NCBI GenBank assembly: GCA_964513425.1
Contig: CAZEME010000001.1
Coordinates: 3,062-67,061 of the forward strand
Source of the DNA: an uncultured Candidatus Saccharimonas sp.
GTDB taxonomy: Bacteria > Patescibacteriota > Saccharimonadia > Saccharimonadales > Saccharimonadaceae
Direction of reading: 5' to 3'
Length of the DNA: 64,000 nt
The notes beneath the pieces were generated by a model that worked only from the letters and a program-made list of their open reading frames with translations, did no database searches and was not told where the DNA came from. This document shows, piece by piece, positions 1-35,201 of the stretch (positions within the stretch are counted from its first letter, which is position 1; every line of letters starts with the position of its first letter). Made by a program: the position numbers and the translations under genes.

Positions 1-2
1 AC

Positions 3-224
3 CGCAAGTCTGCAGAAATAATACAGCAAATTGTTGGCTTTGGAGTCGAAAAGCACGATGACCTAGTCGATGCAGTTTCAATGGGCTTAAACTACATTCA
101 AAGTAATGTTAGGTGGCAAATACTTGCAGAATATGGTGGATTCAGGTTCAGCGACGACCCTACGGGCACGAACCATGGTGAATTTACGGTTACGGGGGTT
201 AAATATCTGGATGAATTAGATTAA
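3..224 (+). CDS. phage terminase large subunit, C-terminal fragment (5' end outside window)
   Basis: Frame-3 translation is RKSAEIIQQIVGFGVEKHDDLVDAVSMGLNYIQSN...YLDELD, with stop TAA at 222-224. The EKHDDLVDAVSM block resembles the conserved hDDxvDA motif near the C terminus of terminase large subunits. It is absent from the ORF track because no start lies in the window. Confidence 0.5.
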   Translation, partial: RKSAEIIQQIVGFGVEKHDDLVDAVSMGLNYIQSNVRWQILAEYGGFRFSDDPTGTNHGEFTVTGVKYLDELD

Positions 225-233
225 AAAAATTAA

Positions 234-806
234 TTATTTATATTTAAGACTATATAAATCTTGAATAGACATACTTTTTCGAAGAAGCTCATCTTCTTCA
301 AGTCGTTCAAACATAAGTTCTCTTGATGTTGACACATTTGGCCAATCATCTGCCCATAAAACACCATCGAATTCTTTGGCTCCTTGTTTGTTGAGAATCC
401 CAGATACAATCTTAAATAATTTTTCAATTCTCTTGAGTGTCGGCTCAGTTAATATTTGGTATGACTTATTATTCAGATAAATCTTATTAATATGAGCAAC
501 TTTTTCGTGCCTAAAATTAATTAAATCTTTATATTCCTTTGATAAAGTATTTTTTATATAATCTGCATCACTTAAGTCAGATATAACCCTGGTTAACCTT
601 AGCGCACCATTCTGACTATCGAATATATAATTAGTAATTAATATTAGTTTAGCTGTCATGCAATCGAGAACAAGTTGAAAAAATGGGTCATATGCACTAT
701 CTATCATGTCTATTTTCTCAAATATTTGTCGGTATGCTTTAATAATTTCGTTTCCTTTTGCAATCTCTTTACAAAAGAATTCCCAATTTTGCTTATCAAT
801 AGTCAT
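234..806 (-). CDS. HEPN-domain protein, AbiU2-like, last gene of the Type I R-M operon
   Basis: 190-aa ORF starting 2 nt after the hsdR stop. It carries an Rx4-6H HEPN signature, FRHEKVAH (R99..H105, nt 492-512). It looks predominantly helical and has a length typical of AbiU2-type HEPN proteins. Confidence 0.55.
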   Translation of the reverse strand: MTIDKQNWEFFCKEIAKGNEIIKAYRQIFEKIDMIDSAYDPFFQLVLDCMTAKLILITNYIFDSQNGALRLTRVISDLSDADYIKNTLSKEYKDLINFRHEKVAHINKIYLNNKSYQILTEPTLKRIEKLFKIVSGILNKQGAKEFDGVLWADDWPNVSTSRELMFERLEEDELLRKSMSIQDLYSLKYK

Positions 807-808
807 TT

Positions 809-3800
809 TTATATCTTTCTACTAGAAATATCAAAAAACTTATTAAAGAATGCTGTTAACTTATCCAAGACTGTTTCTCGTTTCTTGCCTCGGCTTTGAT
901 CAGCTGAAAAACGTGACACAGGTGGCAAAATCTTAGTAATTGCAGTTCCGCTAGTTTGGACTCCTCCATCACGAAACGCACTATCAATAAAGCTATAAGT
1001 CTCATCACGATCAAGATTTTCATCAGCAATAATCTTATTTAATTCCTCAATCTTTTTTGTATCAACAAATGACTGCCAATTATCATCAACGACTGAACCT
1101 ACATCTAATGAATTTATGAATTGCTCAATAAGATCTTTCTTGTTACGAAGTTCAACACTTGAATCTATGGCTTTATTAATATCAACTAACAATTCTTTAT
1201 CCTCTTGATTACCTGCATGATATTTGCGAATTAGTTCAAGAATGTAATCAATATTTATTTCAACTTGTTTGATTAATTCCATTTCAAAGACGATATCATC
1301 ATTAATATTTTCCTTGTCGCTATCTGCAATATCCCTAAACTCATCATAGAAATTAATATACATACTATGATAATCTTGAACATCACGTTCGGATAAAATT
1401 TCTTTTCCAAGAAAATCATCAAATGTAGTCAATATATTTCTAACCTTTAATATTGCACCGTAAAGATTAATGAATTCTTTCTTATTTTGTTCGCCAATAA
1501 TTTGCTCATTTACTGGGAATCGTGAAAGTAATTCGTTCACAAGATCAGTGTATCCACGAATTTGCTTACCTTCAGATTCATAACCCTCATAATATTCTTT
1601 GAAAGATTTCAGCAATACAATACCGCTTGCTTCTTTATCGCCAAATAACGCAATTGAATCATTTGTTGCTTTTTCAAGATTACGGAAAGTCACAATGTTG
1701 CCGAATGTCTTAATAGAATTAAGTATTCGATTTGTACGTGAGTATGCTTGTAATAAACCGTGCATTCGCAAATTCTTATCAACCCATAATGTGTTCAATG
1801 TTGTTGCATCAAAACCAGTCAAAAACATATTAACAACTATCAACAAATCGATCTCGCGATTCTTCATTCGTAATGAAACATCTTTATAGTAATTCTGAAA
1901 TTTATCAGATGATGTATCATAATTCGTAGTAAACATTTTGTTATAGTCTTTCATCGCAGAATCTAGAAAATCTCGCGAACTAGCATCAAGACCATCAGTG
2001 TTCTCAGAATTCTCATCAATTACGCCATCGAGTTCATCATCAACTTCGTTTGCACTATAACTAAAAATTGTTGCTACCTTTAAACGTGCAAGTTCTGGTA
2101 TCTCTGATTGTTGCTTCTTAAACTCTGCATAATATAACTTTGCTACTTCGATTGAACTAACTGCAAATATTGAATTAAAACCACTGAGTCGAATCTTTTC
2201 TTTTACTTCTTCAACAGCCGATCGGTCACGTGCCGAAGCTGCTTCAAATACATTAGCTAGTTTGGTAAATGCGTACGGTTTGCTGTTTCGCTTTGTCTTC
2301 TGATCAAAATGCTCACGAATATACTTAACTACGTTTGATATACGTTCAGGTGCAGCCAGAGCTTTTTCGCGGTCAATATCCCTAACCTGAGAATCATCAA
2401 CATCATCAGCCTCTCTAACAGTACGAACGTAATCGATTCGAAATGGCAAAACATTTTTATCCGTAATGGCATCAACGATAGTATAAGTGTGGAGCTTTTC
2501 ACCGAATGCTTGTTCGGTTGTTTTTATGTCCACTCTTCCGCCGCTAGATGAGTTCTTAGCAAATATCGGTGTACCCGTAAAACCAAATAAATGATAATTC
2601 TTAAAGTTTTTTGTTATTGCATGATGCATATCACCAAATTGTGAACGATGACATTCGTCAAAAATAATTGCTATGTGACTATCAAATGCCTTATGCCCTT
2701 CGTTCGATCGAATGAACTTATCAAGTTTTTGAATAGTGGTAATAATAATTCTAGCGTTTGCATCTTCAAGTTGTCTTTTTAGTTTGGCAGTGCTCGTATT
2801 GCTATTTGCAGCGCCTTTTTCAAACTTGTCATATTCTTTCATTGTTTGATAATCGAGATCTTTGCGATCAACAACAAACAAAACCTTATCTATATAAGAT
2901 AATTTACTAGCAATTTGGGCAGTCTTAAAACTTGTTAATGTCTTACCTGACCCTGTTGTATGCCAAATATAGCCACCAGCATCAATTGTTCCAAGTTTTT
3001 TATAATTTGTTGAGATCTCTATTCGATTTAGTATTCTTTCTGTTGCAACTATTTGATATGGTCGCATTGCGAGTAATAATCGGTCGCTAGTGAATACGCA
3101 ATACTTCGTTAGAATACTTAAAATTGTATGCTTTGCAAAAAATGTCTGCCCAAAATCCATTAGATCAAATATAGGTTTATTGCTTGAATCAGCCCACCAA
3201 CTTGAAAACTCAAAACTATTGCTTGTCTTTTTACTTCGCTTACTGTTATTGTCATTTGATTCTTTGATGTGCTGAAAGCGTGTAGTGTTGCTGTAGTATT
3301 TTGTGTAAGTTCCGTTACTAATTACAAACAACTGAACATATTCGAACAAACCGCTATCTGCCCAAAAACTATCTCGCTGATAACGATTTATCTGGTTAAA
3401 TGCCTCTTGTAGTGCGATGCCTCGTCGTTTCAATTCAACGTGCACAAGTGGTAGACCATTTACTAGAATCGTCACATCATAACGATTAGATCGCAAACCA
3501 TCAATTTCATATTGGTTAATGACTTGAAGACTATTATTATGAATATTCGTTTTATCGATAAGGTAAATATTCTTAACTTCGCCATTATCACGAGTTAGTA
3601 ATTGAACGTGATCTTCTTGTATCTTTGCTGTCTTTTCTTCTATGCCTTCATTTTTGTTAGCTAATTTTGTGACAAAAAATTGTTCCCATTCTATATCACT
3701 GAATTTATAATCATTTAATTTTTCAAGTTGTGTGCGTAAATTTGTAATTAAATCTGATTCGCTTGAAATTGATAAATAATCGTATGCCTGAGATTCAAGT

Positions 3801-3925
3801 AACTTTATAAAAGCTTGTTCTAGATCGGCTTCGCTCTGATAATTAGTCGCTCTAGTTATTGCAGGAGTAAATTCACCCACGACCGTGCTGTTAGTATTTT
3901 CAGCCACCATGCTGTATTTATTCAT
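809..3925 (-). CDS. hsdR: Type I restriction enzyme R subunit
   Basis: 1038 aa. It has the Walker A motif HTTGSGKTLTS, the DEAD/DEAH-type box IIFDECHRSQ and an N-terminal nuclease region. Its start overlaps the hsdS stop by 4 nt. Confidence 0.95.
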   Translation of the reverse strand: MNKYSMVAENTNSTVVGEFTPAITRATNYQSEADLEQAFIKLLESQAYDYLSISSESDLITNLRTQLEKLNDYKFSDIEWEQFFVTKLANKNEGIEEKTAKIQEDHVQLLTRDNGEVKNIYLIDKTNIHNNSLQVINQYEIDGLRSNRYDVTILVNGLPLVHVELKRRGIALQEAFNQINRYQRDSFWADSGLFEYVQLFVISNGTYTKYYSNTTRFQHIKESNDNNSKRSKKTSNSFEFSSWWADSSNKPIFDLMDFGQTFFAKHTILSILTKYCVFTSDRLLLAMRPYQIVATERILNRIEISTNYKKLGTIDAGGYIWHTTGSGKTLTSFKTAQIASKLSYIDKVLFVVDRKDLDYQTMKEYDKFEKGAANSNTSTAKLKRQLEDANARIIITTIQKLDKFIRSNEGHKAFDSHIAIIFDECHRSQFGDMHHAITKNFKNYHLFGFTGTPIFAKNSSSGGRVDIKTTEQAFGEKLHTYTIVDAITDKNVLPFRIDYVRTVREADDVDDSQVRDIDREKALAAPERISNVVKYIREHFDQKTKRNSKPYAFTKLANVFEAASARDRSAVEEVKEKIRLSGFNSIFAVSSIEVAKLYYAEFKKQQSEIPELARLKVATIFSYSANEVDDELDGVIDENSENTDGLDASSRDFLDSAMKDYNKMFTTNYDTSSDKFQNYYKDVSLRMKNREIDLLIVVNMFLTGFDATTLNTLWVDKNLRMHGLLQAYSRTNRILNSIKTFGNIVTFRNLEKATNDSIALFGDKEASGIVLLKSFKEYYEGYESEGKQIRGYTDLVNELLSRFPVNEQIIGEQNKKEFINLYGAILKVRNILTTFDDFLGKEILSERDVQDYHSMYINFYDEFRDIADSDKENINDDIVFEMELIKQVEINIDYILELIRKYHAGNQEDKELLVDINKAIDSSVELRNKKDLIEQFINSLDVGSVVDDNWQSFVDTKKIEELNKIIADENLDRDETYSFIDSAFRDGGVQTSGTAITKILPPVSRFSADQSRGKKRETVLDKLTAFFNKFFDISSRKI

Positions 3926-4515
3926 ACTGATAGCTCCTGGAACGTAAGTAATTTAGTTCGATAGTATTCGTATTGTTGATGACGAGCAGAAATTTCAGCT
4001 GGTAAGCCTTCGGCAATACTATTGATAAGTATTTCAAATTTATCAAGAATATTAACAATACGATTTTGCTCAGAGATAGAAGGAACAGGTATTTTTATTC
4101 TCGCCATATCTTTTGCCGAAACATCGATAACCTTCGTTCCTTTTGCATATTTACGCTTTTCTTTAAAGAACATTAATGTCTGTGTGTAGTATGCAAAATA
4201 TTTTCCAGTAATCTTTTCAGGTTTAAACACAGTTGCATGACCTCCGGTTACGATCTCTCCATCACCACACCATACAACAGCCTTACCAACATCCTCAAGG
4301 TTTTCACTAGTATTAGTGATTATCACATCACCGCTATTCGCCTTTGTGAGTTTTTTTGCTAGTTCTGGCGATACAAATGACTTAGTTTTATTGGTGAATG
4401 TGCCATAATACGTATAAATTTGACCATAATGAATACAAGGGAAACCACTTTCTGTAAAATCTTTTTTCTGCAAACCATTAGCTCTCATAAATACTCCTGT
4501 ATCTCCCAAATTCAA
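3922..4515 (-). CDS. hsdS: Type I R-M specificity subunit, C-terminal half (TRD2 plus distal conserved helix)
   Basis: 197 aa. It begins LNLGDTG (a TRD start motif shared with the upstream half) and ends ISARHQQYEYYRTKLLTF (conserved HsdS helix). The only start is TTG at 4513-4515, overlapping the upstream stop. It is out of frame with the upstream half because of the (AG)10 tract. Confidence 0.85.
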   Translation of the reverse strand: MNLGDTGVFMRANGLQKKDFTESGFPCIHYGQIYTYYGTFTNKTKSFVSPELAKKLTKANSGDVIITNTSENLEDVGKAVVWCGDGEIVTGGHATVFKPEKITGKYFAYYTQTLMFFKEKRKYAKGTKVIDVSAKDMARIKIPVPSISEQNRIVNILDKFEILINSIAEGLPAEISARHQQYEYYRTKLLTFQELSV

Positions 4516-5114
4516 CCATTTAACGTCTCTCTCTCTCTCTCTCTCTGCGAGTCTTGTTGTTCAAACGTCAACAACTGATTTCTATAAAAATCGTATTGCT
4601 TCCTTCTCGCCTCCAGCTCCGCTGACAGCTCCGCTTCTAATTGTGTGAACTTATCGAGAATATTTGCAACCTCTTTTTGAACTTCTAGTGGCGGAATTGG
4701 AATCTGTATACTGCCGATAACTTCCGTTGGTAAGTGTGCCGGTATTGCATCTGTAGCTTGTGATTGAATAAAACCCTGTTTATCTTTTAATACGTAAAAA
4801 AGATATTTATTATCTAAGTTCTCGTTTGGTTTAATGCAGTAACAGACATCATTTGCCCAAAATGCTTCCTTAATATAATTGACGAATCCAGCTGTACCAT
4901 ATTTCACCACAGTAATTGTGTTTGCTGATTGGTTAAACTTACTATAATAACCCATCGGCGTCACGCCACCGCTATATACTGGGTATATACCATCTGACGT
5001 AAGTTCACTTTTCGTGACGCGCCTCCCCCTCTTAATTGAAGCTGTGTCACCGAGATTTAAAAATATTACTCCCTCTGGGCAGGATTTCTGGATCAGCTCA
5101 CCAATCTTGCTCAT
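4512..5114 (-). CDS. hsdS: Type I R-M specificity subunit, N-terminal half (TRD1 plus central conserved helix)
   Basis: 200 aa. It contains FLNLGDTASIKRG at the TRD start and LEARRKQYDFYRNQLLTF as the conserved helix. The C terminus QRERERETLNG-stop is encoded by the dinucleotide repeat. Confidence 0.85.
   Translation of the reverse strand: MSKIGELIQKSCPEGVIFLNLGDTASIKRGRRVTKSELTSDGIYPVYSGGVTPMGYYSKFNQSANTITVVKYGTAGFVNYIKEAFWANDVCYCIKPNENLDNKYLFYVLKDKQGFIQSQATDAIPAHLPTEVIGSIQIPIPPLEVQKEVANILDKFTQLEAELSAELEARRKQYDFYRNQLLTFEQQDSQRERERETLNG
4526..4546. repeat. simple sequence repeat (TC)10T on the + strand, (AG)10 on the coding strand, at the hsdS half-gene junction
   Basis: Read directly as tctctctctctctctctctct at 4526-4546. 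It is the only long dinucleotide tract I noticed in the window. Confidence 0.95.
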
Positions 5115-5569
5115 TACAATTTGATCTTCCCATTGGCAGCTGCGCCAATACCTACAATATTCCCAACTTCTGCCTTAACTAAGCTATCAATAGAAACTTT
5201 TGAAGTAAAGTTAAAATTAAATAATGATTTTATAGCCTTTTGAGGTTCTTCGCCTTGTTCAATTCCTTCTATCACATCTATGCCATTCGCTGTTAAATGC
5301 AAGCCGAGTAACAACAGACCGCCCATAATTTCTTTATTATTCTTTTTTGCGATAAGACCTTTTTCTAGCAAATAATTGAAGGCATTATATAACAAGATAT
5401 CATCTTTACTTATTGAATGCAGGATATCTTTAAGCCACGACTGCGTATCAACTTTCATATTTGATACTGCAGCAAATACTATGCCAGTTTGTCCCAACTT
5501 AGTAGGATCATCTAGCTGTATAACATATAGAGATAAGAGGATTTTGCCAGCTGTTTGCTTTACGCTCAT
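5114..5569 (-). CDS. hypothetical protein embedded between hsdM and hsdS (possible winged-helix fold)
   Basis: 151-aa ORF. Its start overlaps the hsdM stop by 4 nt and its stop overlaps the hsdS start by 1 nt. The segment LYNAFNYLLEKGLIAKK...GLHLTANGIDVIEGIE resembles wHTH recognition-helix and wing regions. I recognise no catalytic motif. Confidence 0.6.
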   Translation of the reverse strand: MSVKQTAGKILLSLYVIQLDDPTKLGQTGIVFAAVSNMKVDTQSWLKDILHSISKDDILLYNAFNYLLEKGLIAKKNNKEIMGGLLLLGLHLTANGIDVIEGIEQGEEPQKAIKSLFNFNFTSKVSIDSLVKAEVGNIVGIGAAANGKIKL

Positions 5570-7137
5570 TTTTTATCCTCTATTTCAGCAACAATCGCAT
5601 CAATCTGAGTACGAAGTTCACTCTGTCTCTTAACAATATTTGCTATGTTTGCATTCAGCTCCGTAATATCAGTGGCGACTGTCATATCAAGCTCGTCAAT
5701 ATAACTACTAACTGCAATATTATAATCATTTTTACTAATTTCATCGTTTGTCACTAATCTAGCAAAATGATCAATGTCTCGACGACTAATAAATGCCTCT
5801 AATATTTTATCTTGATTGACTTGACTGAGCTTATTCTTATTGCCGCCACGAACAAATTCAGCCGATGCATTAATAAATAAAGTTGAGTTGTCTTTTTTGC
5901 TCTTTTTCAAGACTACAATACACGTTGAGATAGTCGTCCCAAAGAATAAGTCAGGCGGTAATTGAATAACTGCATCAACAAAGTTGTTGTCTATTAAGTA
6001 CTTACGAATTTTCGCTTCTGCACCGCCACGATACAGCACTCCAGGGAATTCAACAATTGCAGCAATTCCGCTGGTTGATAACCAACTTAGAATATGCATT
6101 GTAAATGCTAGATCGGCTTTACTCTTTGGGGCTAGTACACCTGCAGGACTGAACCGAGGATCATTTATTAATAATGGATTTGCGTCGCCTTCCCAATTAA
6201 TCGAATATGGTGGATTTGAAACAATTGCATCAAATGGTTCATCGTCCCAATGTTGTGGGTCAATTAATGTATCACCATGAGCTATGTTAAACTTCTCATA
6301 ATTAATGTCATGCAAAAACATATTTATACGTGCAAGGTTGTAGGTTGTTAAGTTAATTTCTTGACCGAAAAATCCTTGACGAACATTATCTTTTCCAAGC
6401 ACTTTAGCAAACTTTAACAGTAAAGATCCTGAGCCACACGCAGGGTCATATACCTTATTAACCTGCGTCTTGCCAACAACTGTAATACGAGCGAGTAATT
6501 CGCTTACTTCTTGTGGGGTAAAGAATTCACCACCAGATTTTCCTGCACTACTGGCATACATACCCATCAAATACTCATACGTATCACCGAAAGCATCAAT
6601 TGTATTGTCTGTGTAATTACCAAGTTTCAAATCACCAATTACGTCCATTAATTTAACAAGTCGCTCGTTACGTTTTGCAACTGTTTGTCCTAGCTTGTTG
6701 CTATTAACATCTAAATCATCAAATAATCCCTTAATATCGTCTTCACTGTCTGCGCCTTTTGCAGAACCTTCAATATTTCGGAATACTCCAGATAAAACTT
6801 CATTCAAATTTTCTTCACTTTTTGCTCGTTTGCGAACATTTTCAAAAAGTTCACTTGGTAATATATAAAAGCCTTTTTCCTTAACGGTATCGTCACGACC
6901 AAATTCTGCAGCATCATCACTAAGGTTTTTATAATCAAAATCTCTAGGTGTGTTTGAATCTTTCAATTCTTCTGAATTGATATAGTTTGTTAGATTTTCC
7001 GAAATGAACCTATAGAATAGTATCCCTAAAACGTATTGTTTAAAATCCCAACCGTCTACAGACCCTCGCAGATCATTTGCAATTTTCCAAATAGTACTGT
7101 GTAGATGCGTACGCTCTTGCTCTTTTTTATTATCCAT
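5566..7137 (-). CDS. hsdM: Type I R-M N6-adenine DNA methyltransferase subunit
   Basis: It has the AdoMet motif VYDPACGSGSLL, the catalytic motif SNPPYS and an N-terminal HsdM_N-like region (IWKIANDLRG). The ORF is open to 7203. ATG at 7137 is preferred because a TATAAT box (7147-7152) lies inside the extension. Confidence 0.93.
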   Translation of the reverse strand: MDNKKEQERTHLHSTIWKIANDLRGSVDGWDFKQYVLGILFYRFISENLTNYINSEELKDSNTPRDFDYKNLSDDAAEFGRDDTVKEKGFYILPSELFENVRKRAKSEENLNEVLSGVFRNIEGSAKGADSEDDIKGLFDDLDVNSNKLGQTVAKRNERLVKLMDVIGDLKLGNYTDNTIDAFGDTYEYLMGMYASSAGKSGGEFFTPQEVSELLARITVVGKTQVNKVYDPACGSGSLLLKFAKVLGKDNVRQGFFGQEINLTTYNLARINMFLHDINYEKFNIAHGDTLIDPQHWDDEPFDAIVSNPPYSINWEGDANPLLINDPRFSPAGVLAPKSKADLAFTMHILSWLSTSGIAAIVEFPGVLYRGGAEAKIRKYLIDNNFVDAVIQLPPDLFFGTTISTCIVVLKKSKKDNSTLFINASAEFVRGGNKNKLSQVNQDKILEAFISRRDIDHFARLVTNDEISKNDYNIAVSSYIDELDMTVATDITELNANIANIVKRQSELRTQIDAIVAEIEDKK

Positions 7138-7225
7138 ATATAAAGTATTATAACCTAAAAATAGGTATAAATCAGCCATGAAATTACTAGACTTTACTGA
7201 CAATTGGCGATAATGTTGTCCTATA

Positions 7226-8488
7226 ATGAAAACAGATTTAACAGATATAAAATATTGCCTGTATGCTCGAAAATCGAGCGAGCAAGATGAACGTCAAGCA
7301 ATGAGCATTGACTCACAAATCAAAGAAATGACCAACATGGCGAACCGTGAGGGGCTACAAGTCACAGAAGTCAAGCAAGAGAGTCATTCGGCCAAACAAT
7401 CTGGGCAAAGGCCTGTCTTTAGCGAATTGCTGACAGATTTACGGAATGATAAATTTCAGGGCATATTAACTTGGGCGCCCGACCGGCTATCACGAAACGC
7501 TGGCGATTTGGGATCATTAGTGGACTTAATGGATTCTAATAAATTACTGCATATTCGAACATTTGGGCAAAGTTTCAGTAATACACCGAATGAAAAGTTT
7601 CTGTTAATGATTTTGTGTTCGCAAGCCAAACTCGAAAACGACAATCGAGGTGTAAATGTAAAACGAGGAATCCGTGCTAAATGTGAAATGGGATGGCGAC
7701 CATGTATGCCTCCGCTTGGATACTTTACTCGAGCTGCAACTGGTGGCGCCCGGGATGTTATTGTTGACGAAGAACGAGCACCATATATTAAAAAGATGTT
7801 CGAGATGTCTGCAAATGGTAAAGGTGGCAGACATATTAAGCAATGGCTAATGGACAATAATGTAAAATCTAGAGGCGGAAAGAATATACCACTTAGTATG
7901 ATTTACAGGATGTTAAATAGTCCATTTTATTATGGCGAGTTTGAATATCCTTCAGGATCGGGCAAATGGTATAAAGGCAATCATCAACCGATAATCGATA
8001 AAGACTTATTCTTGAAAGTCAAAGAACAGTTAAAGGTTCCAATAAAATCTAAATGGGGCTCAAAAGAATTTCCCTTCAGGAACTTTCTGAAATGTTATAG
8101 TTGTGGTGCTTCAATTGTTGGCGAAGAACATACTCGGCATTATGCGAATGGTCGAAATCCTCGATTTGCTTATTATCATTGTTCGCGCCAAGTCGATCAT
8201 GATTGCAAAGAACCATACATATCTGAAAAAGGCATTGTTGAAGAATTGTGTAGCATGCGAAATGAATTAATCACAGATTTACGAGAAGTTGAGCCAGGTT
8301 TGCGTGATGCAATCGAGAAATTTACTAAAATGATTAGTGTTACCGACGAAGATTATAGCAAACAAGAAATGATCGGCGGATATATTAAATACGTATTGCA
8401 TGAAGGGAGTTTGTTTGAGAAAACAAGACTAATTCGAAATATAAATATTAATCTTATGCTGCACAATAAAATACTAATTAAACTATAA
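7226..8488 (+). CDS. large serine recombinase (resolvase/invertase N-domain, recombinase domain and zinc ribbon)
   Basis: 420 aa. The N-terminal YARKSSEQDERQAMSIDSQ is a serine-recombinase catalytic region. GWRPCMPPLGY...ERAPYIKKMF is recombinase-domain-like. The Cys cluster is CYSCGAS...YYHCSRQVDHDC. It is divergent from hsdM. Confidence 0.88.
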   Translation: MKTDLTDIKYCLYARKSSEQDERQAMSIDSQIKEMTNMANREGLQVTEVKQESHSAKQSGQRPVFSELLTDLRNDKFQGILTWAPDRLSRNAGDLGSLVDLMDSNKLLHIRTFGQSFSNTPNEKFLLMILCSQAKLENDNRGVNVKRGIRAKCEMGWRPCMPPLGYFTRAATGGARDVIVDEERAPYIKKMFEMSANGKGGRHIKQWLMDNNVKSRGGKNIPLSMIYRMLNSPFYYGEFEYPSGSGKWYKGNHQPIIDKDLFLKVKEQLKVPIKSKWGSKEFPFRNFLKCYSCGASIVGEEHTRHYANGRNPRFAYYHCSRQVDHDCKEPYISEKGIVEELCSMRNELITDLREVEPGLRDAIEKFTKMISVTDEDYSKQEMIGGYIKYVLHEGSLFEKTRLIRNININLMLHNKILIKL

Positions 8489-8497
8489 TCATATGAT

Positions 8498-9898
8498 ATG
8501 GACAATAATCAAAAAGAAGATAACCAACTTAGCCAAAGAAATATATTAAAAGAATGCTTCACATTATTTGGTAACTCCTATTATGATTCTTTTATCCCTG
8601 GGATAACTGACCTTGTAAAACTTTCCAGGGACCGTCAATATTATAAGAATCCGGCAAAACATTTTGGCCTACAAATAGGGTTAATGGATGCTATTATAAA
8701 GATGGACGAAACCGTTTCCTTAGGCAAACAAGAAGCAAGAAAAAATAACAATAGCGAAGATATAATAATTCAACGAAGACGCAATAGAGTAATTTCATTA
8801 GCATATCGACAAATTTGTGATGGAATTGCTTGGCGCAGTGTTGGCTATTCAAGATTTTATATTCGCATAATGTCTCAGGCACGATCACCTGGATCTGCTC
8901 ATGGAAAAGAAATTGGTCGAAAAAAAGAGATGATTTATGCAACAAATGTCGTACGTAATGGAAGCTATGTTTTAATACACGATGCAACAAATATACTTAG
9001 GGTTGGCGACCTGAGCGCACTAAAAAACATACCTGGAGTACCTTATCTGTCAGAGATAAAAAATAAGAAAGGTATTGCTACACCAAAAGACATAGACGAA
9101 AGATTAGAAAATGGCACATCTACAACTAAACAGGAAGATAGATTATGGCAGGCACAAATAATGCTTAGTTCTAAGAAATGGTATATGAAAGATGTGATTA
9201 TACCTGTTACAAGATTAGTGGCCAAGAAGAAGGATTTCTTAGTAAGTGCCGGCGCTGTCTTGAAACAAGCTGTGAATAAAGGCGTTTACGGAAAAATGTT
9301 AAGCAATTATATGTACATGGAGGCATTTGATATACGTAAAATACTAAATAGTTTTAGTGATACTATATCTTTTCAAAAACTATTAAATACTCTGCCAAGC
9401 CCTCAAAAAGAATTACTTTCAATTCATTCAAACTATGATACCATTGAGGCTCTTTTAGATAATGAGGTGATGCGTTCCGTCCCGCCATACACTATATTCC
9501 CTTTCTCAGCTGAAGTGGTGGCTAAGCTTATTACTGGGCAGCTTGTTTTTAGGACTATGATCTTAAAAAAAGAATTAGAAAATGAATTTCTAAAGTTTGG
9601 CTATGAGTTGATTATTGATGAAAAAGCGCTTGAAGAAGTATCCCAAGACGAAGATAGTGTGGTCTTTTTGTCCAGTAGAGTGCTATTTCCAGATAAAGAT
9701 CCTGACTCGTTTGTGCATATTAGGCACAATAATAGTGGCTTTATGTACCCTATGCAAATGTTCTTTGCTACGATTGCATATGAATTTTTAAGTGTTGAAT
9801 ATATTATTTCGATAGCTGAAGCTGTAAGGGCGACAGCAAAACCAGGCGAAGTAGGAATGTTTTACCCAGAAATAGAAGACAGCTATCGCTGGCTATAA
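8498..9898 (+). CDS. hypothetical protein with a PD-(D/E)xK-like nuclease motif
   Basis: 466-aa ORF starting 9 nt after the recombinase stop. The candidate motif is VLIHD..LRVGD171L-x14-E186-I-K188. I recognise no other family. Confidence 0.55.
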   Translation: MDNNQKEDNQLSQRNILKECFTLFGNSYYDSFIPGITDLVKLSRDRQYYKNPAKHFGLQIGLMDAIIKMDETVSLGKQEARKNNNSEDIIIQRRRNRVISLAYRQICDGIAWRSVGYSRFYIRIMSQARSPGSAHGKEIGRKKEMIYATNVVRNGSYVLIHDATNILRVGDLSALKNIPGVPYLSEIKNKKGIATPKDIDERLENGTSTTKQEDRLWQAQIMLSSKKWYMKDVIIPVTRLVAKKKDFLVSAGAVLKQAVNKGVYGKMLSNYMYMEAFDIRKILNSFSDTISFQKLLNTLPSPQKELLSIHSNYDTIEALLDNEVMRSVPPYTIFPFSAEVVAKLITGQLVFRTMILKKELENEFLKFGYELIIDEKALEEVSQDEDSVVFLSSRVLFPDKDPDSFVHIRHNNSGFMYPMQMFFATIAYEFLSVEYIISIAEAVRATAKPGEVGMFYPEIEDSYRWL

Positions 9899-9972
9899 TA
9901 CATAATATTAATCATGGATTGATTAGCTATGAAAACGTATTATTGAATTTTCTTATGAACTACAAGAAAAAA

Positions 9973-9994
9973 CCGACCCAAAAGGTCGGTTTTT
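9973..9994. terminator. intrinsic terminator hairpin
   Basis: ccgacc-caaaa-ggtcgg followed by ttttt and preceded by an A-run. It lies between the 466-aa ORF and tRNA-Gln. Confidence 0.6.
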
Positions 9995-10066
9995 CTACTT
10001 CCTAGCGTTATGTCCAATAGATTACAAATGTATATTACAACATAAGGTCTTGTTTGATACAATGCT

Positions 10067-10141
10067 TGGCTGGGGATGAGGGATTCGAACCCCCGAATGC
10101 CAGGACCAGAACCTGGTGCCTTACCGCTTGGCCAATCCCCA
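10067..10141 (-). tRNA. tRNA-Gln (anticodon CUG), CCA encoded
   Basis: The reverse complement folds as a cloverleaf. The acceptor is UGGGGAU/AUCCCCA, the anticodon loop is UU-CUG-GU and the T-loop is GGGGGUUCGAAUCCCUC. It is very similar to the E. coli tRNA-Gln scaffold. Confidence 0.93.
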
Positions 10142-10171
10142 GTATGGTGTGATTATAGCTTAAATCTGTGT

Positions 10172-10894
10172 CTATTTCAATTTATAGTATTTGTCTTTTT
10201 GCTCTCTTGTTAATTTTTCACAGGCGTAGCGGAGCATAGTGCGTGGCATAGTGCCGGCGTATTGGTCTAGAAAACTAGTTAATATTTTTTCATCAACTCT
10301 TTTACCAGCTTCTCTGAGCATCCAACCAACTGCTTTATGGATTAGGTCGTGCCTGTCGTTTAGAAGTATCTTGGCGATAGTAATAGTTGTGCTAGCATCA
10401 CCTTCCATAATGAAAGCTAGGGTGCTTATCATGGCGACTCGTTTTTTCCATAAGTTATCGCTATTGGCAAGATTAATTAGGTCTGAGCGTTCACGATTTA
10501 GATAATACTGACCAACAATATAGCCGCAAGTGACATCAATTAAATCCCAGTTGTTTATCTTTTCTTCATTCAGAGCCTTAATATATAGGCCGTAGATAGT
10601 TTGTTGATCTTTTGGGCTAGATTTTTGATAGCGGTTAGATAAAATAATTAATCCAGCCATGCGATGTTCATGGATAGGGCTGTAGATTAGTTTCTTGGTT
10701 TCAGTGATTGGTAGGTCTTTGAACTCTTTGCATAATCGCCTAGTGTCTGGGACTTTAACGCCAATAAACTCATCCCCTTCACCATATTCACCCTTTCCAG
10801 TTTTAAAAAAGCGCTGGAGATTTTTGGCGTTTTCACTGCTGGCATATATAGCTAGATTGGTTTTGAATTGTTTGGCGGTTAGATTATTTGGCAT
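10172..10894 (-). CDS. DNA alkylation repair protein (AlkD/AlkC-like HEAT-repeat glycosylase family)
   Basis: 240 aa. NLQRFFKTGKGEYGEGDEFIGVKVP and the later WMLRE motif are typical of the DNA alkylation repair enzyme family. Confidence 0.75.
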   Translation of the reverse strand: MPNNLTAKQFKTNLAIYASSENAKNLQRFFKTGKGEYGEGDEFIGVKVPDTRRLCKEFKDLPITETKKLIYSPIHEHRMAGLIILSNRYQKSSPKDQQTIYGLYIKALNEEKINNWDLIDVTCGYIVGQYYLNRERSDLINLANSDNLWKKRVAMISTLAFIMEGDASTTITIAKILLNDRHDLIHKAVGWMLREAGKRVDEKILTSFLDQYAGTMPRTMLRYACEKLTREQKDKYYKLK

Positions 10895-34505: not shown

Positions 34506-35201
34506 TTAGATAGAGGGGTTATGTAGTTTTAATTCTCTTTTATGTTTTAAGTAGTCGGGGTCATTCTCGCCGACTACTTTCCAAAAATTAGCTCCATGGT
34601 TCATCTCTATAGTATGAGATAGTTCATGCAAGATGACATAATCAATTAGTTTAAATGGTAGTTTCATTAAAGCAATATTAAGACTGATTGTGCCATTGTT
34701 GCTACAACTACCCCATCTTCCACCGGCATGAGAACAGCGTACTTTAGTGTAGCTATAGCCATATTTATTAGCCAAGAAAGCTAATCTTTTTGGGAGGTAG
34801 CTTTTTGCCTCATTTTTAATGGCTTTTATAACTGCTTGTTTAACTTGTTCTGTTACTCTTTTATCAGCTAATGTTAAGTTATCTGGCAAATCAATGATTA
34901 TTCTTTGTCCTTGATTTGATATCTTTAATTCTTTTTGGGCACAAGGCTGGATTATTAAGATATGGCTTTTACCTATTTGTTGGCCATTAACTAACTCATA
35001 GCTCGATTTAGAGCTTTTTATCATATCTCTTATTTCAGCTCGTGAATCTTTAATTAGTTTTTTAACTAAAAAGATTGGGGCTCTTGTTGGTAGGGATGCC
35101 CCCAGTGAACCGTTTGGCAAAAGGCGTAGCTTTATTTGTCTAGCCTTGTGATTGCGCCGAATTGTAATCTTTCCAAATTCATCGTCAAGTATTATTGACA
35201 T
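34506..35201 (-). CDS. DUF45/YgjP-like zinc metallohydrolase (M48 superfamily)
   Basis: 231 aa. It has the HELSH zinc motif (VILHELSHTIEMNHGANFW) in a C-terminal position typical of YgjP-like proteins. Confidence 0.72.
   Translation of the reverse strand: MSIILDDEFGKITIRRNHKARQIKLRLLPNGSLGASLPTRAPIFLVKKLIKDSRAEIRDMIKSSKSSYELVNGQQIGKSHILIIQPCAQKELKISNQGQRIIIDLPDNLTLADKRVTEQVKQAVIKAIKNEAKSYLPKRLAFLANKYGYSYTKVRCSHAGGRWGSCSNNGTISLNIALMKLPFKLIDYVILHELSHTIEMNHGANFWKVVGENDPDYLKHKRELKLHNPSI

What the first reader, a model, noticed from the sequence alone, without database searches (positions are those of the whole stretch)
4512..4560. (AG)10 tract sits exactly at the break between two hsdS half-genes; removing one repeat unit restores a full-length two-TRD HsdS (candidate phase or specificity switch)
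On the coding (minus) strand the tract reads C(AG)10A. It encodes ...SQRERERE-TLNG followed by TGA (4512-4514). The downstream TRD2 ORF is in another frame and has only a TTG (4513-4515) overlapping that stop. I re-read the junction by hand. With one AG unit fewer, the frame becomes ...RERER-DVKW-LNLGDTGVFMRANG..., a continuous HsdS of roughly 395 aa. The LNLGDT start of TRD2 mirrors FLNLGDTASIK at the start of TRD1. Each TRD is followed by its conserved helix (RKQYDFYRNQLLTF and HQQYEYYRTKLLTF). With one unit more, the reading frame hits TAA after one codon. Slipped-strand changes would therefore toggle between a full heterobipartite HsdS and a half-HsdS. Truncated half-HsdS proteins in other Type I systems are known to dimerise and recognise symmetric targets. 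SSR-controlled Type I specificity is known in a few pathogens, but I am not aware of it for CPR-like genomes.
Basis: partly seen in the sequence, partly recalled or inferred. Interest (0 to 1): 0.8.

Follow-up and report, generated by a model that had tools for sequence, protein, structure and literature searches.

The report
Repeat-switched Type I restriction specificity gene
A run of ten AG pairs splits the DNA-recognition gene of a restriction-modification system in a Saccharibacteria genome; this is a well-described kind of slippage switch, ordinary in mechanism and new only in its host lineage.

Summary
A perfect (AG)10 tract lies at window 4526-4546 on the minus strand. It is the only dinucleotide repeat of 5 or more units in the 64 kb window. 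It sits in the loop between the central helix and TRD2 of an hsdS gene, inside a tightly packed EcoR124-like (Type IC) operon: hsdM, orf151, hsdS, hsdR. With 10 or 11 units the gene stops after TRD1 and the central helix (200 or 198 aa). With 6, 9 or 12 units it reads through as a 394-398 aa two-TRD HsdS that aligns end to end with full-length homologues.

In orthologous operons from many phyla the same loop carries (GA)n, poly-G, (ACAG)n or (GCAA)n tracts, in both in-frame and split states. Every genuine split among the operons chosen by HsdM similarity falls on such a tract. This supports a slippage-driven switch between full-length and half HsdS.

The mechanism is already known. NgoAV of Neisseria gonorrhoeae is the demonstrated case. 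Atack et al. 2020 found SSRs in 7.8% of REBASE hsdS genes, always between the TRDs, including AG[n]. Only the host, a divergent Saccharibacterium (CPR), is new.

Switching is not shown here. All three available assemblies carry 10 units, and no other allele exists in the databases searched.

The parts
5566..7203 (-). hsdM, the Type I N6-adenine methyltransferase subunit (545 aa)
   Evidence: Matches TIGR00497 hsdM at 2.2e-221 and Pfam N6_Mtase plus HsdM_N. Matches the EcoR124II M protein 7bst_D at 4e-179.
5114..5569 (-). orf151, a 151 aa ORF of unknown function between hsdM and hsdS; it overlaps hsdM by 4 nt and shares 1 nt with the hsdS start
   Evidence: No Pfam, NCBIfam or PADLOC match, even at E<=1 in Pfam. 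A 65%-identical copy sits in the same position in the Saccharibacteria locus L004.
4512..5114 (-). hsdS N-terminal half as currently framed: TRD1, the central conserved helix (..LEAELSAELEARRKQYDFYRNQLLTF), an (RE)n stretch and a 5-residue out-of-frame tail (200 aa)
   Evidence: Pfam Methylase_S at 4e-28. Matches the half-size PADLOC Specificity_I model PDLC03111 over positions 1-197 of 207. Translation.
4526..4546 (-). The (AG)10(A) simple sequence repeat. It encodes (RE)n in the loop between the central helix and TRD2 and sets the reading frame of TRD2
   Evidence: In the alignment to EcoR124II HsdS it lies within an 8-residue insertion.
3922..4515 (-). hsdS C-terminal half: TRD2 and the distal conserved helix (..ARHQQYEYYRTKLLTF). 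It is an open 197-codon frame, out of frame with the N-half at n=10, and its stop overlaps the hsdR start by 4 nt
   Evidence: Pfam Methylase_S at 5e-13. It is 70% identical to TRD2 of L155. The conserved DVKW/LNLGD motif extends upstream of any start codon.
4486..4498 (-). AGGAG, a 5-nt spacer and an in-frame ATG inside TRD2; a possible independent start for a 188 aa TRD2 fragment
   Evidence: Read from the sequence. Gene callers used this start in the Logan contigs. Whether it functions is not shown.
809..3925 (-). hsdR, the Type IC restriction/translocase subunit (1038 aa)
   Evidence: Pfam EcoR124_C, T1R_D3-like, SWI2_SNF2 and HSDR_N. Matches EcoR124 HsdR 2w00_A at 1.2e-250, also 1038 aa.

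Best explanation
This is a Type IC (EcoR124-family) restriction-modification operon of a Saccharibacterium. Its specificity gene hsdS carries a hypermutable (AG)n tract in the loop between the central coiled-coil helix and TRD2.

Slipped-strand mispairing during replication would change the unit number. At n = 0 mod 3 (6, 9, 12) the cell makes a full-length two-TRD HsdS with an asymmetric bipartite target. At any other n, including the 10 seen here, translation stops just after the central helix. The product is then a half HsdS (TRD1 plus helix) that would dimerise and direct HsdM2, and HsdR, to a symmetric target built from two TRD1 half-sites.

[quoted passage not shown] The sequenced population is in the truncated state.

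Shown:
- the anatomy and the frame arithmetic
- family membership
- recurrence of repeats in the same loop in orthologues, in both states

Inferred by analogy with NgoAV and truncated EcoR124I/EcoDXXI HsdS:
- that the tract actually changes length at a useful rate in this organism
- that the half HsdS is active
- that the two forms methylate different motifs
For: 1. Anatomy and frames.

2. Type IC membership. HsdR matches EcoR124 HsdR at 1e-250 with identical length. HsdM matches at 4e-179. The HsdS conserved helices match EcoR124II HsdS at 7e-33, and the (RE)n stretch lies within an 8-residue insertion in the loop after ..LLSFK.

3. An ancestrally fused gene. Full-length homologues reach 65% identity over 100% of the 9-unit reconstruction. 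P0040 shares TRD2 and has a linker of exactly the 9-unit length.

4. Recurrence in orthologues. Among 50 orthologous operons (HsdM 74-86% identical) in which both helices could be paired, 12 carry an SSR meeting the Atack criteria in the same loop. That is 12 of the 42 SSRs found in 907 kb, falling within 6 kb of loop windows, roughly 60-fold enrichment. About 20 qualify with laxer thresholds. The motifs are unrelated: (GA)4-12, G7-9, C8, (ACAG)8-12 and (GCAA)/(CAAG)6-24. Both in-frame and split states occur.

5. Splits track repeats. Every genuine split in that set coincides with a repeat tract. This points to repeat-driven frameshifts rather than scattered decay.

6. Closest relative. L155 (TRD1 72%, TRD2 70% identical) is itself split at (GA)7 and is restored at 6, 9 or 12 units. 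L006, L008 and L155 share the flanks AAGGACGGRACC(GA)nGTAAGA with n = 6, 12 and 7.

7. A working half-size form exists nearby. The Saccharibacteria operon L007 has a natural stand-alone half hsdS that ends 9 residues after the helix and is followed directly by hsdR.

8. Literature. The NgoAV poly-G switch changes specificity from GCAN8TGC to GCAN7STCA (PMC9577141). SSRs occur in 7.8% of REBASE hsdS genes, always between the TRDs, and AG[n] is among them (PMC7383803).
Against: - No tract-length polymorphism is seen for this locus. The NCBI contig and two Logan assemblies from different runs are 100% identical, with 10 units. These may all come from one study, so they are weak as independent samples.
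- No 9-, 11- or 12-unit allele exists among about 15 billion proteins. The top full-length hit is only 65% identical, and the N-half cluster has a single member.
- No such allele is in the metagenome collection.
- No reads or methylation data are available.
- Activity of the half HsdS, and the mutation rate of (AG)10 in this organism, are inferred only.
Confidence: 0.65

Rival explanations
1. Fixed frameshift with no adaptive switching. The repeat is only a mutational hot spot that has broken hsdS. The system now runs permanently on a half HsdS, or is inactive, and TRD2 is a young pseudogene.
For: All three assemblies carry the same 10-unit allele, and no alternative allele is found in any database. 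Stand-alone half hsdS genes do exist in the clade (L007), so loss of TRD2 can be a stable end state.
Against: - TRD2 is still an intact 197-codon frame in a 36% GC genome, with all conserved motifs.
- The repeat is perfect and uninterrupted.
- Repeats recur at the same loop with unrelated motifs and in both states across many phyla. This is hard to explain without selection for mutability, or at least frequent reversal.
Confidence: 0.25
2. Assembly or sequencing artefact. The true tract has 9 or 12 units and hsdS is simply intact.
For: Dinucleotide repeats are prone to polymerase stutter. The source is a metagenome-assembled contig.
Against: Two separate assemblies of different sequencing runs (SRR11845635 and SRR11845626) give exactly the same 10 units and 100% identity over 3.3 and 1.8 kb. 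A 20-nt tract is well within read length.
Confidence: 0.04
3. A leaky switch. At n=10, transcriptional or ribosomal slippage on the AG run (a 2-nt shift re-pairs AGA with AGA) yields some full-length HsdS alongside the half form, so both specificities coexist in one cell.
For: A 2026 preprint reports length-dependent frameshift suppression on (AG)n tracts of a Mycoplasma bovis mod gene expressed in E. coli (10.64898/2026.04.01.715767).
Against: There is no evidence for this at this locus. The suppression reported there is weak for -1 frames and short tracts. NgoAV behaves as a discrete genetic switch.
Confidence: 0.05

Closest known systems
NgoAV of Neisseria gonorrhoeae FA1090 (phase-variable hsdS with a poly-G tract)
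   Same: hsdS is split into hsdS1 and hsdS2 by a repeat-induced frameshift at the 3' end of the TRD1/central-helix half: 208 of 410 aa there, 200 of 396 here. Losing one repeat unit fuses the halves and changes specificity, and the truncated form is active (PMC9577141). Gene content is hsdM, hsdS1, hsdS2, hsdR.
   Different: The repeat is a mononucleotide G tract, not (AG)n. The host is a proteobacterial pathogen. NgoAV switching and both specificities were shown experimentally; nothing has been shown here.
AG[n]-bearing hsdS genes of Mycoplasmataceae, and GCAA[n] hsdS genes of Haemophilus parasuis and Pseudomonas aeruginosa (Atack et al. 2020 REBASE survey)
   Same: The SSR lies between the two TRD coding regions and meets the same criterion (dinucleotide, 5 or more units). 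Switching between full-length and truncated HsdS is predicted. The same dinucleotide is used in Mycoplasma (PMC7383803). The GCAA[n] class also appears among the orthologues found here (L030, L040, L044, L048, L070).
   Different: The host phylum is different (Saccharibacteria/CPR). The Mycoplasma loci often carry several tandem hsdS genes; this locus has one.
Engineered or spontaneous truncated HsdS of the Type IC enzymes EcoR124I and EcoDXXI (own knowledge: Abadjieva et al. 1993; MacWilliams and Bickle 1996; Smith et al. 2001)
   Same: Same enzyme family. An N-terminal half made of TRD1 plus the central conserved region dimerises and recognises a symmetric target.
   Different: Those truncations were made in the laboratory or arose by transposon insertion. 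They were not produced by a reversible repeat.
Inverton (recombinase-driven) phase-variable hsdS loci, reported for two REBASE Saccharibacteria loci
   Same: They also diversify Type I specificity within a clonal population. This is the only previously reported Type I phase-variation mode found here for Saccharibacteria (PMC7672463).
   Different: The mechanism is site-specific inversion among several hsdS copies, not slippage in a single gene. No inverted hsdS copies are seen at this locus.

Membership tests
Type IC restriction-modification systems (EcoR124 family) | HsdR homologous over its full length to EcoR124 HsdR, including the family-specific C-terminal domain | tested here: met
   PF12008 EcoR124_C at 3.4e-67. 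phmmer match to 2w00_A at 1.2e-250; both proteins are 1038 aa.
Type IC restriction-modification systems (EcoR124 family) | HsdM homologous to EcoR124 HsdM | tested here: met
   Match to 7bst_D at 4e-179 over residues 28-542. TIGR00497 at 2.2e-221.
Type IC restriction-modification systems (EcoR124 family) | HsdS with two TRDs, each followed by a conserved helix homologous to the EcoR124 central and distal regions | tested here: met
   The 9-unit reconstruction matches 7bst_A at 7e-33 across the central helix, TRD2 and the distal helix. In the sequence as it stands the two halves are in different frames.
Type IC restriction-modification systems (EcoR124 family) | Subunit complementation or cross-hybridisation with other IC members (the classical family definition, from own knowledge) | not testable with these tools
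   Requires genetics or biochemistry.
SSR-controlled (phase-variable) hsdS genes, NgoAV/Atack class | An SSR whose unit is not a multiple of 3, long enough to be unstable (dinucleotide, 5 or more units), inside the ORF | tested here: met
   (AG)10. Criterion taken from PMC7383803.
SSR-controlled (phase-variable) hsdS genes, NgoAV/Atack class | The tract lies between the two TRD coding regions | tested here: met
   The tract starts 8 codons after ..YRNQLLTF and ends 4 codons before the W-LNLGD start of TRD2.
SSR-controlled (phase-variable) hsdS genes, NgoAV/Atack class | Gain or loss of units toggles between full-length and truncated HsdS | tested here: met
   In-silico edits give 394-398 aa for n = 6, 9 or 12, and 196-202 aa for every other n from 6 to 14.
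SSR-controlled (phase-variable) hsdS genes, NgoAV/Atack class | Tract length differs among strains or within a population | tested here: inconclusive
   This locus has 10 units in all three assemblies and no other allele in the databases. Among orthologues with the same flanks, n = 6, 7 and 12 (L006, L155, L008). Reads were not available.
SSR-controlled (phase-variable) hsdS genes, NgoAV/Atack class | Full-length and truncated forms give different methylation specificities | not testable with these tools
   Needs a methylome or cloned variants.
Functional half-HsdS (single TRD plus coiled-coil helix, acting as a dimer) | The product retains a complete TRD and the full central conserved helix | tested here: met
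   The 200 aa product covers Methylase_S positions 2-167 of 168. It matches the half-size PADLOC model PDLC03111 over positions 1-197 of 207. The natural half hsdS of L007 ends at the equivalent point.
Functional half-HsdS (single TRD plus coiled-coil helix, acting as a dimer) | Dimerisation and assembly with HsdM | not testable with these tools
   No multimer modelling or biochemistry was available.

The most novel reading that the evidence does not exclude
The tract is a working contingency locus in an ultra-small episymbiont. It would be the first SSR-driven Type I specificity switch documented in Saccharibacteria/CPR. It may be leaky, with slippage on the AG run giving both enzyme forms in one cell. 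It would form part of a convergent 'hypermutable loop' that this Type IC clade uses across more than ten phyla, including other reduced-genome lineages: Gracilibacteria (L052), Patescibacteria (L010) and Velamenicoccus archaeovorus (L058).
Probability: 0.35. Interest if true: 0.45.

Novelty: new member of a known kind. Interest (0 to 1): 0.3.

Why it matters
If the tract does switch, this Saccharibacterium can alternate between two methylation and restriction specificities without extra genes. For an organism with a tiny genome that lives attached to a host bacterium and is exposed to phage and foreign DNA, that is a cheap way to diversify defence, and possibly gene regulation. It also matters for genetic work on Saccharibacteria, because incoming DNA would face a moving restriction target. 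As biology it extends a known mechanism to a new lineage and does not reveal a new one. The practical value is an annotation rule: a 'split hsdS' at a repeat should be read as one phase-variable gene, not as two genes or a pseudogene.

Tried and rejected
- **Alternative alleles in protein databases.** An exact-protein look-up of the N-half, the C-half and orf151 found only two Logan contigs, both 100% identical to the window with 10 units. The 90%-identity clusters of these proteins each have one member. The search with the fused protein found nothing above 65% identity. No polymorphism could be shown.
- **Metagenome scan with the fused HsdS.** No same-species locus was found; the best were 54-68% identical.
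- **Genome scan with HsdM.** The source genome is not among the GTDB species representatives; the nearest are two Saccharibacteria MAGs at 86%.
- **Integration-site repeats.** I searched for att-like direct repeats linking tRNA-Gln to the far side of the operon. Nothing convincing appeared within 1-10300, so the island idea stays open.
- **Function of the small ORFs.** orf151, the 190 aa ORF and the 466 aa ORF gave no significant Pfam, NCBIfam or PADLOC match. The one exception is a sub-threshold AbiU2 HEPN hit for the 190 aa ORF.
- **Supplementary tables of Atack et al.** These are not held, so I could not check whether any CPR entry is already listed there.
- **Structure prediction.** Not run. 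The alignment to the solved EcoR124II HsdS already places the repeat in the inter-domain loop.
- **Artefact reading.** Considered and largely rejected, because independent assemblies agree.

Full report
**Observation**

On the minus strand the sequence reads ...TTGACGTTTGAACAACAAGACTCGC(AG)10ACGTTAAATGGTTGAATTTGGGAGAT.... Tandem Repeats Finder and a regex scan place a perfect 10.5-copy dinucleotide array at 4526-4546. It is the only dinucleotide repeat of 5 or more units in the 64 kb window; the next longest are four-unit TA/AT runs. None of 100 dinucleotide-preserving shuffles produced a match.

ORF listing and translation confirm a 200 aa ORF (4512-5114) ending ...DSQRERERETLNG-TGA. A 197-codon ORF (3922-4515) lies in another frame, and its TTG overlaps that stop. 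Editing the tract in silico gives these products:

| Units (n) | Product |
|---|---|
| 6, 9, 12 | 394, 396, 398 aa, continuous (...QRERERDVKWLNLGDTGVF...) |
| 10 | 200 aa |
| 11 | 198 aa |

The one inaccuracy concerns the TRD2 start. An in-frame ATG at 4488-4486 has an AGGAG five bases upstream, and gene callers used it.

**What the locus is**

The tract sits in a compact minus-strand operon. The genes overlap by 1-4 nt:

| Gene | Coordinates | Size |
|---|---|---|
| hsdM | 5566-7203 | 545 aa |
| orf151 (unknown function) | 5114-5569 | 151 aa |
| hsdS (split) | 3922-5114 | 200 aa and 197 codons |
| hsdR | 809-3925 | 1038 aa |

The proteins place the operon in the EcoR124 (Type IC) family:
- HsdM matches TIGR00497 at 2e-221 and the EcoR124II M protein at 4e-179.
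- HsdR carries the EcoR124_C domain and matches EcoR124 HsdR at 1e-250, with the same length of 1038 aa.
- Both hsdS halves are Methylase_S domains.
- The 9-unit reconstruction matches the solved EcoR124II HsdS (7bst_A) at 7e-33 across the central helix, TRD2 and the distal helix. In that alignment the repeat-encoded (RE)n stretch lies within an 8-residue insertion in the loop between ...LLSFK and EGEVEWKTLGEIG.

The host is most likely a divergent Saccharibacterium:
- The nearest HsdM and HsdR (86%) are in Saccharibacteria MAGs.
- The neighbouring recombinase clusters at 90% identity with a Saccharibacteria protein.
- All named homologues of a chromosomal M48 peptidase (34506-35201) are from Candidatus Saccharibacteria, with 65% as the best identity to any other sequence.

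**Was the gene once fused?**

Yes. The 396 aa reconstruction finds 388-400 aa HsdS proteins covering 100% of its length at up to 65% identity. In these, the central helix is followed by a short variable linker and then V-E-W-K-T-L-G-E. In the window the equivalent D-V-K-W is encoded upstream of the TTG, in the TRD2 frame. P0040 shares TRD2 and has a linker of exactly the length given by 9 units.

**Comparative evidence**

I fetched 80 loci encoding HsdM at 74-86% identity, from many phyla. A strict SSR census of these 907 kb showed repeats piling up about 600 bp into hsdS.

Pairing the central and distal helices located the loop in 50 operons. Twelve of them carry an SSR in that loop that meets the published criteria. 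That is 12 of 42 SSRs in 907 kb falling within 6 kb of loop windows, about 60-fold enrichment. About 20 qualify with laxer thresholds.

The motifs are unrelated:

| Motif | Loci |
|---|---|
| (GA)4/6/12 | L004, L006, L008 |
| G7-9 or C8 | L010, L022, L032, L039, L052, L055, L059, L066, L081 |
| (ACAG)8/12 | L029; L058 (complete genome of Velamenicoccus archaeovorus) |
| (GCAA)/(CAAG)6-24 | L030, L040, L044, L048, L070, L077 |

Both states occur:
- In frame: for example L008, L006, L029, L070, L059.
- Split: L058, L030, L077, L066, L039, L032, L022, L048.

Every genuine split in this set coincides with a repeat. A second sample of 71 hsdS genes, selected by HsdS similarity from metagenomes, gave 5 with a loop SSR. 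That is close to the published database-wide figure.

The closest HsdS relative is L155, from a groundwater metagenome (TRD1 72%, TRD2 70% identical). It is itself split at (GA)7 and is restored at 6, 9 or 12 units. L006, L008 and L155 share the flanks AAGGACGGRACC(GA)nGTAAGA and differ in n (6, 12 and 7).

One Saccharibacteria operon, L007, has a natural single-TRD hsdS that ends nine residues after the helix and runs straight into hsdR. A half-size HsdS is therefore a viable form in this clade. The window's N-half also fits a half-size PADLOC specificity model from end to end.

**Mechanism**

The best-supported reading is a slippage-driven specificity switch.
- With n = 0 mod 3, the cell makes a two-TRD HsdS with an asymmetric bipartite target.
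- With any other n, it makes a half HsdS (TRD1 plus helix) that dimerises to give a symmetric target.

This is what was demonstrated for NgoAV. There, loss of one G fuses hsdS1 and hsdS2 and changes the target from GCAN8TGC to GCAN7STCA, and adding one G leaves the truncated activity unchanged (PMC9577141).

Only the anatomy and the comparative pattern are shown here. Three points are inferred: that the tract is unstable in this organism, that the half form is active, and what the two motifs are.

**What is missing**

The NCBI contig and two Logan assemblies of different runs are 100% identical, with 10 units. No 9-, 11- or 12-unit allele exists in the protein collection or the metagenome collection. 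This agreement argues against an assembly artefact. It does not rule out a fixed frameshift. I put that rival at about 0.25, the artefact at 0.04, and a leaky-frameshift variant, suggested by a preprint on (AG)n tracts, at 0.05.

**Comparison with what is known**

Atack et al. surveyed 23,558 REBASE hsdS genes. They found 7.8% with qualifying SSRs, always between the two TRD coding regions. Their examples include AG[n] in Mycoplasmataceae, GCAA[n] in Haemophilus parasuis and Pseudomonas aeruginosa, and G[n] in Salmonella, in pathogens and environmental species alike (PMC7383803).

The finding meets every sequence-level criterion of that class. Only the criteria that need population data or methylomes remain open.

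For Saccharibacteria, the literature search found only inverton-type hsdS variation (PMC7672463) and no SSR-type report. The supplementary tables of the survey were not available to check.

**Verdict**

- The mechanism is already known, so this is a new member of a known kind in a new host lineage.
- Interest is modest, at 0.3.

Noticed in passing
L006, L008, L010, L022, L029, L030, L032, L039, L040, L044, L048, L052, L055, L059, L066, L070, L077, L081 (loop about 0-120 nt after the central ..YYRxxLL helix of hsdS): In this Type IC clade, unrelated repeat motifs (poly-G/C, (GA)n, (ACAG)n, (GCAA)n) occupy the same inter-TRD loop. 12 of 50 operons (24%) qualify by the published criteria, about three times the 7.8% reported for all REBASE hsdS genes. 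The hosts span Proteobacteria, Bacteroidota, Planctomycetota, Omnitrophota, Actinomycetota and several CPR lineages.
   Followed up: partly
L058 8144-8191 (NZ_CP019384.1, Candidatus Velamenicoccus archaeovorus LiM, complete genome): hsdS is split by an (ACAG)12 tract encoding (TDRQ)n. The orthologue in L029 has (ACAG)8 in frame. This is a finished genome where the split cannot be blamed on binning.
   Followed up: partly
L007 about 4515-5105 (uncultured Candidatus Saccharibacteria, CAYWQH010000003.1): A natural stand-alone half hsdS (one TRD plus helix, ending ..RKELLTFEGLDSE*) is followed directly by hsdR, with HsdM and HsdR 76-78% identical to those of the window.
   Followed up: partly
window 5114-5569 (-); L004 7560-7961: A 151 aa ORF is wedged between hsdM and hsdS and overlaps both. 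It has no match in Pfam, NCBIfam or PADLOC. It is conserved at 65% identity in the same position in one Saccharibacteria relative and absent from the other 159 fetched loci.
   Followed up: partly
window 7226-8488 (+), 8498-9898 (+), 10067-10141 (-): A large serine recombinase (Resolvase, Recombinase and Zn-ribbon domains) and a 466 aa ORF of unknown function lie between the R-M operon and a tRNA-Gln gene. Homologues of the recombinase (27-57% identity) lie within 6 kb of hsdM in about 11 of the 80 orthologous loci. This suggests the operon travels on an integrative element. No att-like repeat was found inside 1-10300.
   Followed up: partly
window 234-806 (-): A 190 aa ORF immediately downstream of hsdR has a sub-threshold match to the AbiU2 HEPN family (E = 5e-4, below the gathering score). 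It may be a second defence gene on the same island.
   Followed up: no
P0002 vs P0012; P0013 vs P0021 (central helix of HsdS homologues): Near-identical HsdS proteins differ by one 4-residue unit (LEAE or LTAE) in the central helix. This is the same kind of change that separates EcoR124I from EcoR124II and alters the spacer length of the target (the EcoR124I/II comparison is from own knowledge). The window has LEAE-LSAE-LEAR at the equivalent place.
   Followed up: no
window 4486-4498 (-): A canonical AGGAG, 5-nt spacer and ATG lie inside TRD2, 24 nt downstream of the N-half stop. This could allow separate translation of a 188 aa TRD2 fragment in the split state. In NgoAV the corresponding hsdS2 product is reported inactive.
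   Followed up: no
L053 8537-8627; L040, L044, L048 (GCAA arrays): L053 has G25, then NNNN, then C57 flanked by inverted sequence, which looks like an assembly artefact. Several long (GCAA)n arrays are interrupted by runs of N, so their unit numbers and frame states are unreliable.
   Followed up: no
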